This document shows, one piece after another, positions 33,001 through 36,000 of a stretch of 64,000 nt of DNA (its first letter is position 1; each line of letters begins with the position of its first letter). Source of the DNA: Candidatus Latescibacterota bacterium (lineage in GTDB: Bacteria; Latescibacterota; UBA2968; UBA8231); NCBI GenBank assembly GCA_965197905.1, contig CBDAOB010000003.1, forward strand, positions 1,120,001-1,184,000. Direction: 5' to 3'. A program made the position numbers.

Positions 33001-36000
33001 GAAACCGCTGATTCCACATGAGCTCCGTACTCCACATACAGGAGATGGTTGTCACCGGGGACGATCTTGCCCGGGCGCACCAGGGCCAGGAAGTGCTGTG
33101 TGTCGTTGCCGCGGCGGTGCTTACGCCGACGGCCTGGGATTACATTCGCGACCAGCGTTTGCGGCTGACTCGAGGGGAAAGCGCGTCCGTGTCCGAGTCT
33201 GTGGCACCGTCGGCGTCGACCAACCTGGTCAACGAGGCGCAGATGGTGCCCCATGCGCAGTGCGACCAACCGGGAAGTTCCTGCGGATGCACAACCGAGG
33301 AGTTTGGCTCCGGTTTTGTTCAACCCGAAAGTTGTGGGGTGTGTGCCATACATCAGCTCAAGGTCGCCGGCCAGGCGAACCCCGGATGCGAGGGCTGTAA
33401 TCTGAACGGGCGCTGCGACGGCGAATCAGGGTCCGCCGCCGCGACGGAGTCACTCGTGGCACAGATCACCGAGCAGATTGTGGAGCAGCTACGCCGATGA
33501 GCGGCGCGCTAGGTATCATCGAGGCAGAGGGGGTCGCCGGCATCATCGCCGCCTCGGACGTTGTCGGCAAAACCGCCGACGTCGAGCTGCTTGGCTGGGA
33601 GTCGATCGGCGGAATCACCTCCATCTTTTTCCGCGGGACCGTCGCGGAGGTGGCCGCCTCACTTGAAAGCGGCCGCGAGGCCGCCGCGGCGCTCGCGGAC
33701 AAGGTTGTGGCGGCCCCGTTGTATCAGCCCGAAGCGGTCTGCAGCGATTTCATTGGGCATCCGATGCCGGACGAGATCGAGGTTCCGGATGGCGCACTGG
33801 GCTTGCTCGAGTCTCGCGGCTACGGTGCTCACGTGCTGGCTAACGACCGCATGGTGAAGGCGGCTCCGGTCCGGGTCTACAATCTTCTGGCAGTGCACGA
33901 TCGCGTCGTTTGCACCCTGATCAACGGCGAGGAGGGTGCGGTTCGAGAGGCGATTGCCAGCGGCCGCGAACTGTTCGCTCGCGACGTGCGCTTCCGCTGT
34001 TCCACCGTTATCTCGCGCCCGTTACCGCACGTGCTGCGGGCGTTCGCGCCGGGCTGTTAGTGCCCTGTATCGATAATATGCCTGTATTAATTCGCCGACT
34101 CATCCCGACCTGCTTCGTTACGCTCACTCGGCGTATTTCACCAATACGCCTCGATCGCGCGCCTTGCAGGACGGGCGACTCGGCGCCTTCATTGCACAGG
34201 CCTACTTCCGATACAGGGCACTGAGGAGGCTGCAGGTGGCGCAACCAAGCGCATTCGGGGTGTTGGAGACCCGAGGAGTAACGGCTCAAGTGGCTGCGAC
34301 CGACGCCATGGTCAAAACTGCTGATGTTCGGGTGTGCGGACGCCAGGCGATCGGCTCGGGATGGGTAACGGTGGTAGTGGAGGGTGAGGTCGGGGCCGTG
34401 CAAGCCGCGGTGGCAAGCGGCGAGCGCGAAGCCGGCAAGTACGGCGAGCTGATCGGCGCGGACGTCCTGACCGCGCCGGACATGGCGGCCGCCGACATCA
34501 TGCCACATGCCAGTGGGCTGAGCCCTGCTACCCTCAAACCCCAGCAAGCTCTCGGCGTCCTCGAGACTCGGGGTTTTGCCCAGCTGGTCGTTGGGGGTGA
34601 CGCCGCGACCAAGGCGGCGGCGGTAAGTGTCTGCGGCTGGGCTTCTGCCGGCGGTGCACTGTGCCATCTGGTGGTTCAGGGCGAAGTGGCCAGCGTGTAC
34701 ACTGCCCTGCGCGAAGGTCGCATCGCAGCCGAGACCGCCGGCGAGGTGTATGCGGCCCTGGTTATTCCACAGCCAGCGGTGGACGTGGCCGGCGTGTTGC
34801 CCGTGCCCGCAGGCGCTCAGCCAGCAGAGGTCGGTGCCCTCGGAATACTGGAGACCACCGGATATACCGGTTCGGTGGCGGCTGCGGACGCGATGGCCAA
34901 AACGGCTGAGATCGGAGTGGCGCGTTTCAATATTGGAAGTGGTGGACGCACCGCTGTTATGACCACGGGAAAACTGGACGATGTCCAGGCCGGCATCGAG
35001 CCCGGTGTTGCCGCGGCCAAACTGGCTGGTGGATTCGAGAACGCCCGTGTCGTCACCCGGCCCGACCCGGATATCGTGGCCTGTTTCGCGCAGGCAACAA
35101 CCAGTGCCGCACCGAAGGGGCTGGCCCTCGGATTAATCGAAACCCGCAGCACCGTGGCTCTGGTGAAGGCGATGGACGAGATGCTCAAAGGGGCCGACGT
35201 GGAGTACGAAGGCCGGGTGAAGGTGGGGTTCTATCTCACCGCCGGTGCGATTCGCGGTGACGTGGGCGCCGTCAGAGTGGCATTGGATCTGGGTGCGAAA
35301 GAGGCTCGTCGCCATGGGGAACTGGTCGCAACGCACTTGATACCGCAACCCGACCGGGGTATGGAGCCACCGCTACCACATCGAGGAACGTAATCACCAG
35401 GAAGAGAACAAACATGGTACGCATCGCAGCTAGAGTGATCACGGGTCCGATGCTGGAGGAACAGCTCGCTGGCTCCGGCTCTGTGCAGATCGACAGGGGA
35501 GCGGTACTGACGCCCTCGGCGTTGGACTACCTAAAGGCTCACGAGGTCTCGGTGGTGCGCGACGGAGATGTGCCGCCTGCTGCCGCGAAGGGGGAGAAGC
35601 AAAACAGCCCCGTCGCGGGAGCGAAGCGGTTTCAAGGAATTTTTGTGCCCAACGTCGTCATCTTCGACGCTGACGGAAACATCAACTTCGGCGAAATGGA
35701 GCGTTACATCGCCTGGTTGATCGACGCTGGCATTCACGGACTCTACCCCAACGGAAGCACCGGCGAATTCGTGCGGCTTTCCGCCGAGGAGCGGCGGGAG
35801 GTGGTGCGCATCATCGCAAATGTAAACCAGGGGCGAGTTCCGATTCTGGCCGGTGCCAGCGAAGCGAATGTGCGCGACGTGCTGGATACGGCGGAGTATT
35901 ACGCGCGTTTGGATGTGGATGCCATCTCCCTGGTGCCTCCGTACTACTACAAGATCTCCGAACGCAGCCTGTTCGAGTATTTCGCCGAGATCGCCCGCAA

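What a model noticed while it worked through the whole genome (the two positions that open the first line are those of the whole stretch)
34236..35393. Shell protein with four BMC domains in one chain in the microcompartment locus
The microcompartment locus encodes, beside three pentamer, one hexamer and two tandem-domain shell genes, a 385-aa protein (g01630) of four complete, non-permuted BMC domains. I read it as a seventh shell-protein architecture: three chains give twelve domains, i.e. two pseudo-hexameric tiles tied together, side by side or stacked. The published catalogue knows one- and two-domain forms only, so this would extend the building set for engineered shells.
Evidence so far: Pfam: four BMC hits, each HMM 1-75 of 75, at 6-81, 105-180, 201-276, 297-372 (E 7e-20 to 3e-14); repeats share 22-37 identical residues over 78-89. 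Locus: g01621-23 EutN_CcmL, g01624 BMCx2, g01625 BMC, g01626 aldehyde dehydrogenase, g01627 PTAC, g01629 BMCx2, g01630, g01631 DHDPS-type lyase, g01632 DAO-type oxidase. Call 129: 181 proteins at E<=1e-70; of the 120 listed all but one are 365-393 aa at 50-97% id, named, where named, BMC-domain/CcmO/EutM protein of Latescibacterota or Gemmatimonadota, so the length is conserved. PMC8217296 (passages read, call 132) defines six types, none with four domains. Two full-text searches gave 0 papers.
(Added by a program. Inside this text positions count along the whole contig: contig position 1,120,001 is position 1 of the stretch shown here. "Call 12" and the like, gene names such as g00115 and contig names such as C1 are that model's own, and its searches are not shown. 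The text may have been shortened before it was handed on; [...] marks where a part breaks off. The agent that wrote the report below was given it as the finding of a first reader that could run no searches.)

Follow-up and report, generated by a model that had tools for sequence, protein, structure and literature searches.

The report
Four-domain microcompartment shell protein with partner
A real, conserved shell protein made of four fused microcompartment domains, already noted in a 2021 catalogue's supplement, which most likely joins the two-domain protein encoded just upstream to build one six-part hexagonal tile.

Summary
Window 34236-35393(+) encodes a 385-aa protein with four complete, non-permuted BMC (PF00936) domains, inside a metabolosome locus. 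Its length is conserved in relatives.

The novelty claim does not hold as written. [quoted passage not shown] It gives no assembly model.

A two-domain BMC gene (T2) ends directly upstream of the four-domain gene in 70 of 70 loci with an intact gene. The two genes occur in 83 of the same 168 genomes of the phylum and never clearly apart. A complex model puts T2 between domains 1 and 4, closing a six-domain ring (ipSAE 0.88, best control 0.00). That pass may come from likeness to solved hexamers.

The six domains read as (Ta-Tb-H)x2, like the neighbouring T1-H gene pair.

Best reading, at 0.55: a 4+2 heterodimeric pseudohexamer. It has not been tested biochemically.

The parts
34236..35393 (+). 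Q4: 385-aa shell protein of four non-permuted BMC domains. d1 is at 34251-34478, d2 at 34548-34775, d3 at 34836-35063 and d4 at 35124-35351. GTG start, with GAGGAGG six bases upstream.
   Evidence: domains; conserved length; AF2 pLDDT 93.9, pTM 0.91; start and Shine-Dalgarno read from the alignment
33497..34060 (+). T2: 187-aa two-domain BMC protein, the proposed partner that supplies the other two domains of the ring. It probably corresponds to 'Ts_hazel' of the catalogue.
   Evidence: 2 BMC stretches; directly upstream of Q4 in 70 of 70 loci; 58 versus 45 (co-occurrence); complex model; fold
34059..34222 (.). 164-nt MITE-like dispersed repeat with 27-nt terminal inverted repeats. It is inserted between the T2 stop and the Q4 start and is absent from the 92%-identical relative L001.
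   Evidence: gap in L001; inverted arms 34059-34085 and 34196-34222, 85% complementary; 8 further copies at 87-94% identity over about 165 nt, plus one at 75%, in the own genome; no Rfam match
30010..30567 (+). T1: 185-aa standard-looking tandem BMC protein. Both domains keep the IPRP motif.
30582..30845 (+). H: 87-aa single-domain BMC-H. With T1 it forms the conserved T1-H gene pair.
29168..30009 (+). Three BMC-P (EutN_CcmL) genes: 29168-29470; an ORF at 29302-29721 whose domain begins at residue 56; and 29725-30009.
30875..32302 (+). Aldehyde dehydrogenase (PF00171)
32311..33021 (+). Phosphotransacylase PTAC (PF06130)
33018..33500 (+). 160-aa protein with no Pfam hit. Its N-terminal ~50 aa resemble the aldolase N-terminus. 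The middle is Cys-rich and the C-terminus is an amphipathic helix-like tail. It matches the catalogue's description of the MUF2 uncharacterised protein.
   Evidence: (E 3e-4, 15/49 identical)
35414..36574 (+). DHDPS-family class I aldolase or lyase with an N-terminal extension of about 70 aa. It is the gene that follows Q4 in most loci.
36581..37675 (+). FAD-dependent oxidoreductase (DAO, PF01266)

Best explanation
g01630 (Q4) is a genuine shell protein made of four canonical BMC domains fused head to tail. It is the 'quadruple linear fusion' that the 2021 catalogue mentions for MUF2-type loci. Its four domains form a rigid arc covering four of the six positions of a hexagonal tile. The two missing positions are most likely filled by the two-domain protein T2, encoded immediately upstream and normally translationally coupled. 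One Q4 chain and one T2 chain would then make one pseudohexamer with ring order T2a-T2b-d1-d2-d3-d4.

All six positions of such a tile are genetically distinct. All six keep the edge lysine needed to tessellate, but the pore loops all differ, so the pore would be fully asymmetric.

The six-domain array looks like a duplicated T-H gene pair, (Ta-Tb-H)x2, in which H-Ta-Tb-H became one chain.

Shown here: the domain architecture, its conservation, the gene adjacency, the co-occurrence and the domain-type pattern. Inferred: the 1:1 heterodimer, the ring order and the pore asymmetry.
For: Architecture and conservation.

Rigid arrangement: the AF2 model has pLDDT 93.9 and pTM 0.91. Residues 199-385 (d3-d4) superpose on the synthetic tandem BMC-H chain 6NER as two neighbouring ring positions (VIA Z 27.1, rmsd 1.9 A, 180 aligned; next row Z 17.7, one domain). 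The T2 model does the same (Z 25.0, rmsd 1.9 A, 176 aligned).

Junctions: the gaps between domain envelopes are 4-7 residues at all three Q4 junctions and 5 in T2, read in the near-identical L001.

Partner gene: of 75 related loci, 70 have an intact four-domain ORF. All 70 have a two-domain ORF whose stop lies -8 to +21 nt from the start of the first Q4 domain. The other 5 are cut by contig ends or split.

Co-occurrence in 168 genomes of the phylum: Q4 matched in 84 and T2 in 84, with 83 shared. G096 has T2 cut at a contig end. The Q4 match in G036 is weak (E 4.9e-31, with a stop inside it). T2 lies next to Q4 in the coordinates listed.

Complex model, Q4 plus T2: ipSAE 0.88 (runs 0.88, 0.88, 0.89), best of 3 controls 0.00. 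The mark was reached by 116 of 157 solved complexes and 2 of 215 mismatched pairs; these counts hold only roughly with my own alignments. Runs agree in at least 98% of contacts and the partner's pLDDT is 92. T2b (107-138, 185) touches d1 (7-91). T2a (7-85) touches d4 (304-361). G139 in the d2 pore loop also touches T2.

Six position-specific families: each of T2a, T2b and Q1-Q4 is one side of a branch (SH-aLRT 93-100) in a tree of 138 domains from 15 of the 75 loci.

Domain types: the best standard counterpart by profile score is T1a for T2a (115 vs 91, 85), T1b for T2b (105 vs 93, 81), H for Q1 (148 vs 131, 129), T1a for Q2 (148 vs 141, 140), T1b for Q3 (128 vs 112, 107) and H for Q4 (156 vs 125, 119). 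The split {T2b, Q3, T1b} against the rest has SH-aLRT 96.

Motifs: the D-x-x-x-K lysine is at least 90% conserved in all six families. G-Y is shared only by T2b and Q3.
Against: No experiment supports the model.

The complex pass may come from memory. BMC hexamers are abundant among solved structures, so any BMC protein might be modelled into the gap. The obvious rivals were not run: T1, two H chains, or three Q4 chains. The cap is one job, and three Q4 chains exceed 1000 residues.

Adjacency and co-occurrence are also expected for two separate tiles of one operon, and related genomes are not independent samples.

No six-domain T2-Q4 fusion was found that would act as a Rosetta stone.

Some margins in the domain-type assignment are thin (Q2: 148 vs 141 and 140). 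Apart from the b-type split, the tree leaves the groups unresolved. It is the quick tree, because the careful search did not finish.

In this genome the two genes are separated by 175 nt, so the usual coupling is broken here.
Confidence: 0.55

Rival explanations
1. Three Q4 chains give twelve domains, which form two pseudohexamers tied together, side by side or stacked. T2 forms its own ordinary trimer.
For: The arithmetic works (3x4 = 2x6). Solved tandem BMC-T proteins such as PduT are described as trimeric (entry title of 3pac). d1-d2 aligns in sequence with PduT over both domains (Q4 5-180 to PduT 3-173, E 3.8e-17).
Against: The d2-d3 junction is as short as the other two (4 residues against 7 and 6), which leaves no slack to reach a second ring. 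The monomer model is one rigid body (pTM 0.91). In the complex model d1 and d4 both border the same two-domain gap. The rival does not explain why T2 always abuts Q4 and is never clearly found without it. It could not be tested directly, because three copies exceed the size limit of the complex tool.
Confidence: 0.12
2. Q4 forms the four-domain arc, but the gap is filled promiscuously by T1, by two BMC-H protomers, or by the first two domains of another Q4 chain (a domain-swapped chain of tiles). T2 is then not a dedicated partner.
For: T1 has the same Ta-Tb domain types as T2, so it fits the pattern equally well. BMC ring interfaces are conserved across the family. Heterohexamers of paralogues are reported for CcmK proteins (PMC6788708; search listing and start of the abstract only).
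Against: T2 and Q4 co-occur in 83 genomes and abut in 70 of 70 loci. In nine loci the trio T2, Q4 and aldolase has no other gene of this locus within the 8 kb fetched on each side (L002-L009, L015, L022, L046), so the pair travels together. The T2 domains sit on long branches (1.3 and 2.08 changes per column), as expected of a specialised partner rather than a generic tile.
Confidence: 0.2
3. Q4 is not part of a closed tile. It acts as an open arc or strip, for example a cargo scaffold, an assembly nucleator or an edge element.
For: Nothing direct. No structure exists, and four of the six domain families have Gln where standard domains have the Arg of the IPRP edge motif, so the edges are atypical.
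Against: All four domains keep the edge lysine (K27, K126 and K222 invariant, K318 at 90% or more). The folds are canonical. An exposed ring interface would be unusual for this fold.
Confidence: 0.08

Closest known systems
'Large H_blurple' quadruple linear fusion of BMC-H domains in MUF2 loci (Sutter et al. 2021, PMC8217296, Supplementary Data 2; passages read)
   Same: It is the same protein family and the same locus type. Shared features are AldDh and PTAC, a BMC-P triplet, the Ts_hazel two-domain protein, a pfam00701 aldolase whose N-terminal domain is shared with a Cys-rich protein carrying a C-terminal tail, and Gemmatimonadetes-type hosts. Homologue P0090 is CME28_01110, next to CME28_01115, which the catalogue lists as Ts_hazel of MUF2.
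   Different: The catalogue gives one sentence. It files the form under BMC-H rather than as a type of its own, leaves it out of the trees I searched (no 382-386 aa entries), and offers no oligomer, partner or origin. The partner gene, the 4+2 ring and the (Ta-Tb-H)x2 pattern are proposed here.
BMC-Ts tandem shell proteins (PduT 3pac/3n79, HO-5812 5dih; CcmO named from memory)
   Same: Fusions of non-permuted PF00936 domains that stand in for neighbouring protomers of a hexagon. Q4 5-180 aligns with PduT 3-173.
   Different: They have two domains, not four, and three identical chains close the ring. In structural comparison, solved BMC-Ts chains superpose on only one domain of the Q4 and T2 models (Foldseek TMt 0.39-0.44, rmsd 14-17 A; about 85-92 residues aligned). 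This is unexplained.
Synthetic tandem BMC-H fusion of Haliangium ochraceum (PDB 6NER)
   Same: It is the best structural match for d3-d4 (Z 27.1, rmsd 1.9 A over 180 residues) and for T2 (Z 25.0, rmsd 1.9 A over 176 residues). Two BMC-H-like domains sit as ring neighbours.
   Different: It is engineered and has two identical domains. Its paper is not in the library, so how it assembles is recalled, not read.
CcmK3/CcmK4 hetero-hexamers of beta-carboxysomes (PMC6788708; search listing and start of the abstract only)
   Same: One hexagonal tile built from more than one gene product.
   Different: Those are mixtures of single-domain protomers. Here the stoichiometry would be fixed at one four-domain and one two-domain chain, with every position distinct.

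Membership tests
BMC shell protein, PF00936 superfamily | PF00936 domain above Pfam's gathering score | tested here: met
   229.7 bits against a cut-off of 24.5, in four stretches. All four are over the cut-off individually in the genome scan.
BMC shell protein, PF00936 superfamily | Canonical (non-permuted) strand-helix-strand-strand-helix-strand order | tested here: met
   DSSP element order in each of the four domains. Each domain superposes on BMC-H chains at Z 16-18, rmsd 0.9-2 A.
BMC shell protein, PF00936 superfamily | Edge lysine of the D-x-x-x-K motif (motif recalled from the PduA literature) | tested here: met
   K27, K126 and K222 are invariant and K318 is at 90% or more in 64 sequences. 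The lysine is upper-case (90% or more) in all six domain families.
BMC shell protein, PF00936 superfamily | Encoded with BMC-P (PF03319) genes in one locus | tested here: met
   Three EutN_CcmL genes lie at 29168-30009.
BMC-Ts (standard trimer) as defined in PMC8217296 | Fusion of exactly two PF00936 domains | tested here: not met
   There are four domains. The definition was read.
BMC-Ts (standard trimer) as defined in PMC8217296 | Homotrimer forming one pseudohexamer | not testable with these tools
   Three copies (1155 residues) exceed the limit of the complex tool. Four domains per chain cannot close one ring by threefold symmetry.
MUF2 locus type (PMC8217296, Supplementary Data 2) | AldDh and PTAC in the main locus with a BMC-P triplet | tested here: met
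   The description was read.
MUF2 locus type (PMC8217296, Supplementary Data 2) | Uncharacterised protein with a Cys-rich middle and a C-terminal encapsulation-peptide-like tail, whose N-terminal domain is shared with a nearby pfam00701 aldolase | tested here: met
   The 160-aa ORF has 8 Cys between residues 82 and 133 and an amphipathic-looking C-terminal tail. Its N-terminus matches the aldolase N-terminus (E 3e-4). Whether the tail is an encapsulation peptide is inferred.
MUF2 locus type (PMC8217296, Supplementary Data 2) | pfam00596 class II aldolase in a satellite or the main locus | tested here: inconclusive
   There are three PF00596 matches elsewhere in the genome. I did not check whether any lies beside a BMC gene or carries an encapsulation peptide.
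MUF2 locus type (PMC8217296, Supplementary Data 2) | Satellite BMC-H with a C-terminal extension (H_darkrose) | tested here: inconclusive
   One satellite BMC domain lies in a 166-aa open frame at G000:C4:115944-116171(-). The length fits the catalogue's 152-182 aa darkRose entries, but I did not compare the sequences.

The most novel reading that the evidence does not exclude
T2 and Q4 form an obligate 1:1 heterodimer. This would be a hexagonal shell tile in which each of the six positions is encoded separately, giving the first natural BMC tile with no internal symmetry and a fully asymmetric pore. It would have arisen from a duplicated T-H gene pair whose chain breaks were moved. Because the T2-Q4 pair travels with the DHDPS-type aldolase even when away from the main locus, the tile may be the dedicated gate or docking site for that enzyme, through the N-terminal domain the aldolase shares with the Cys-rich protein.
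Probability: 0.4. Interest if true: 0.75.

Novelty: new variant of a known kind. Interest (0 to 1): 0.55.

Why it matters
BMC shells are thought of as built from hexamers, trimers of tandem domains, and pentamers. Pore chemistry in those tiles is constrained by 6-fold or 3-fold symmetry. A natural 4+2 tile would show that evolution can break that symmetry completely. It would also give shell engineers a scaffold in which each of six positions, and each pore residue, can be changed on its own with fixed stoichiometry.

The form is widespread in one lineage: 84 of 168 genomes of the phylum matched. So it is not a curiosity of a single assembly.

The bare existence of the four-domain form is not new, because it is mentioned in the 2021 catalogue's supplement. 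What is new here is the partner, the geometry and the origin, and all three are computational only.

Tried and rejected
**Six-domain T2-Q4 fusion.** I looked for one as a Rosetta stone and found none. The ORFs of 495-621 aa are out-of-frame upstream extensions that still hold four domains. No protein of 394-674 aa appears among the 120 best homologues. I did not run the 'longer' or 'shorter' length searches.

**Literature searches for the architecture or a 4+2 tile.**
- 'four BMC domains' gave 0 papers.
- A five-term search gave 48 papers. Among the 20 listed, the only 'four domains' occurrence is in a cofactor-recycling paper that I did not open.
- 'MUF2' returned only the catalogue and its preprint.
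- 'quadruple' with 'BMC-H' returned one paper, where the word refers to a Zymomonas quadruple mutant.
- 'pseudohexamer' with 'heterodimer' and 'BMC domain' gave 0 papers.

**Catalogue supplements.** Files 3, 4 and 5 were searched by term. MOESM5 and MOESM7 are too large to read and may hold locus drawings or sequences of these proteins.

**Other checks that led nowhere.**
- Earlier notes of this scan held nothing by place or by sequence.
- Rfam gave 0 matches at E<=0.1 on the inserted repeat.
- The careful tree search did not finish in 288 s, so the quick tree was used.
- Solved BMC-Ts chains did not superpose on two domains of either model. I have no explanation and drew no conclusion from it.
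- I considered a covariation test between T2 and Q4 columns and dropped it. About 70 closely related pairs give too little power.
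Full report
**1. The observation**

Window 34236-35393(+) is an open frame of 385 codons with a GTG start. The reverse strand is full of stops. Pfam BMC (PF00936) matches at E 2.4e-69 in four stretches.

The four repeats align with each other and with the other shell proteins of the locus without any permutation. The AlphaFold2 model (64-row alignment A1, pLDDT 93.9, pTM 0.91) shows the canonical element order four times.

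The locus is as described:
- three EutN_CcmL genes
- a two-domain gene, T1 (30010-30567)
- a BMC-H gene (30582-30845)
- an aldehyde dehydrogenase
- PTAC
- a 160-aa ORF with no Pfam hit
- a second two-domain gene, T2 (33497-34060)
- the four-domain gene, Q4
- a DHDPS-family gene
- a DAO gene

The genome holds ten BMC domains in all. Nine are in this locus and one lies in a 166-aa frame on another contig.

Of 209 homologues at E<=1e-10, the 120 listed are 365-393 aa, apart from one 269-aa fragment. Where named, they are labelled Gemmatimonadota or Latescibacterota.

**2. Is it known?**

The main text of the catalogue (PMC8217296) defines six shell types and has no occurrence of 'four BMC' or 'three BMC'. 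Its Supplementary Data 2 does mention the form. [quoted passage not shown]

The rest of that description also fits this locus:
- AldDh and PTAC, with a BMC-P triplet.
- A pfam00701 aldolase whose N-terminal domain recurs in an uncharacterised Cys-rich protein with a C-terminal tail. Here the 160-aa ORF has eight Cys and a helical-looking tail, and its first ~50 residues match the aldolase N-terminus (E 3e-4).

My homologue P0090 is named CME28_01110. CME28_01115 is listed in the catalogue's trees as a 193-aa Ts_hazel of a MUF2 locus. I found no 382-386 aa entries in those trees, so the long proteins seem to have been left out of them.

Further full-text searches found no other paper on the form. 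So the four-domain architecture has been in print since 2021, but only as one sentence, filed under BMC-H, with no model of how it assembles.

**3. Geometry of the chain**

A pTM of 0.91 means the four domains are modelled as one rigid body. Residues 199-385 (d3-d4) superpose on a chain of the synthetic tandem BMC-H fusion 6NER, as two neighbouring ring positions (Z 27.1, rmsd 1.9 A, 180 residues). Every other entry matches a single domain at Z 15-18.

The gaps between domain envelopes are 7, 4 and 6 residues, read in the 92%-identical L001. The middle junction is therefore no looser than the other two. That argues against d1-d2 and d3-d4 sitting in different rings. Four wedges of 60 degrees leave a gap of two.

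**4. The partner**

I fetched 75 related loci and annotated them with the window's proteins. The order is conserved: 160-aa protein, T2, Q4, DHDPS-type aldolase, DAO.

Seventy loci have an intact four-domain ORF. All 70 have a two-domain ORF whose stop lies -8 to +21 nt from the first base of Q4's first domain, so the genes overlap or abut. The other five are cut by contig ends or split (L068 has 3+1 domains).

In nine loci (L002-L009, L015, L022, L046) only T2, Q4 and the aldolase are present within 8 kb on each side. In L003 the neighbours are unrelated enzymes. The trio therefore moves as a unit.

Across the 168 genomes held for the phylum, Q4 matched in 84 and T2 in 84. Eighty-three genomes have both, lying side by side. 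G096 (85% complete) has T2 cut off at a contig end. The Q4 match in G036 is weak and contains a stop. These genomes are related to one another, so the counts are not independent.

**5. Complex model**

I folded Q4 (alignment A4) with T2 (alignment A3, same 33 loci in the same order). The ipSAE was 0.88 (runs 0.88, 0.88, 0.89) and the best of three controls was 0.00. That mark was reached by 116 of 157 solved complexes and 2 of 215 mismatched pairs, counts that hold only roughly with my own alignments. The runs agree in at least 98% of contacts and the partner's pLDDT is 92.

The interface is the informative part:
- T2's second domain (107-138, 185) lies against d1 (7-91).
- T2's first domain (7-85) lies against d4 (304-361).
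- G139 in the d2 pore loop also touches T2.

In both contacts the helix-1 side of the earlier domain meets the strand side of the later one. The ring therefore reads T2a-T2b-d1-d2-d3-d4 in one direction.

The caveat is plain. Hexamers of this fold fill the PDB, so the model may place any BMC protein there. The controls were unrelated proteins, not T1 or H. The model shows that the geometry is compatible, not that T2 is the specific partner.

**6. Domain types and origin**

In a tree of 138 single domains from 15 of the 75 loci, each of T2a, T2b and Q1-Q4 is one side of a branch (SH-aLRT 93-100). They sit on long stems (0.6-2.1 changes per column), whereas T1a, T1b and H are short-branched. The split {T2b, Q3, T1b} against all others has support 96. 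This is the quick tree, because the careful search did not finish.

Profile-profile scores over the 70 loci give each specialised domain a best standard counterpart:

| Domain | Best counterpart | Score | Other two scores |
|---|---|---|---|
| T2a | T1a | 115 | 91, 85 |
| T2b | T1b | 105 | 93, 81 |
| Q1 | H | 148 | 131, 129 |
| Q2 | T1a | 148 | 141, 140 |
| Q3 | T1b | 128 | 112, 107 |
| Q4 | H | 156 | 125, 119 |

Read along the two genes, this is Ta-Tb-H-Ta-Tb-H. That is twice the T1-H gene pair that stands a few kilobases upstream, and that pair is itself duplicated in L053, L055, L056 and L064.

Shared derived motifs agree. G-W occurs in T1a, T2a and Q2. G-Y occurs only in T2b and Q3, and Y109 of T2 is the residue modelled most closely against d1.

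My inference is that a duplicated T-H-T-H array fused H-T-H into one chain. Some margins are thin and this remains an inference.

**7. What the tile would look like**

All six families keep the D-x-x-x-K lysine at 90% or more, so all six edges could tessellate. Only Q1 and Q3 keep the Arg of the IPRP motif seen in T1a, T1b and H. The other four have Gln.

The six pore-loop consensus strings all differ:
- T2a: SIGG
- T2b: TVHnR
- Q1: GiGSGW
- Q2: iGGAL
- Q3: igSGGR
- Q4: KVGYf

That these loops line the pore is inferred from the position of the G-S-G loop in PduA, which I recall rather than tested.

**8. Verdict**

The protein is real and conserved. Its existence was already noted in print.

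The best reading is a 4+2 heterodimeric pseudohexamer with T2 (0.55). Promiscuous completion of the arc by other shell proteins stands at 0.2, and a role outside a closed tile at 0.08.

The function of the compartment itself stays open, as in the catalogue. The constant company of a DHDPS-type lyase and, in most loci, a DAO-type oxidase is the main lead. The lyase follows Q4 directly in 61 of 68 loci with enough downstream sequence. Three more loci have it under an over-extended ORF, and four have DAO directly after Q4 instead.

**9. This genome's peculiarity**

Between the T2 stop (34060) and the Q4 start (34236) lie 175 nt that the close relative L001 lacks. Of these, 164 nt (34059-34222) are a repeat with 27-nt inverted ends. 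The repeat has eight further copies at 87-94% identity over about 165 nt, plus one at 75%, elsewhere in the genome, and it matches no Rfam family.

A GAGGAGG motif stands six bases before the GTG start. Q4 can therefore still be translated, but the usual coupling to T2 is broken here.

Noticed in passing
window 34059-34222: A 164-nt MITE-like element with 27-nt terminal inverted repeats is inserted exactly between the T2 stop and the Q4 start. It is absent in the 92%-identical relative L001. Eight further copies at 87-94% identity over about 165 nt, one at 75%, and several partial copies lie in the same genome. It has no Rfam match.
   Followed up: yes
models me24730b148ed and ma398e121c55c (window 34236-35393 and 33497-34060): Solved natural BMC-Ts chains (PduT 3pac/3n79, HO-5812 5dih, cages derived from PduT) superpose on only one domain of both models (TMt about 0.4, rmsd 14-17 A). 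The synthetic tandem BMC-H fusion 6NER superposes on two (Z 25-27). The reason is unexplained. It may be that the second domain is connected in the other direction around the ring.
   Followed up: partly
L053, L055, L056, L064: The T1-H gene pair is present twice in these loci, once before the aldehyde dehydrogenase and once after PTAC. This shows that the pair duplicates as a unit.
   Followed up: partly
window 33018-33500 and 35414-35560: The first ~50 residues of the 160-aa Cys-rich protein and of the DHDPS-type aldolase are alike (15 of 49 identical, E 3e-4). This may be a shared targeting or shell-docking domain. The catalogue notes the same for MUF2.
   Followed up: partly
L003 9771-15830 (and L002-L009, L015, L022, L046): In satellite-type loci the trio T2, Q4 and aldolase is followed by a PhyH-type dioxygenase, a zinc-type alcohol dehydrogenase, a DAP-epimerase-fold protein and an enolase-superfamily (MR_MLE) enzyme, in place of DAO. 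Together with DHDPS and DAO in the window, this hints at catabolism of an amino-acid-like or hydroxy-acid substrate. From memory, DAO-type dehydrogenase plus DHDPS-type deaminase is the pair used in hydroxyproline degradation. I did not test this.
   Followed up: no
G000:C4:115944-116171 (-), outside the window: A satellite BMC domain lies in a 166-aa open frame. It is possibly the 'H_darkrose' BMC-H with a C-terminal extension that the catalogue lists for MUF2 at 152-182 aa.
   Followed up: no
L068 3258-4431: The four-domain gene is split into a three-domain ORF and a one-domain ORF. The cause is either a frameshift or an assembly error in that MAG.
   Followed up: no
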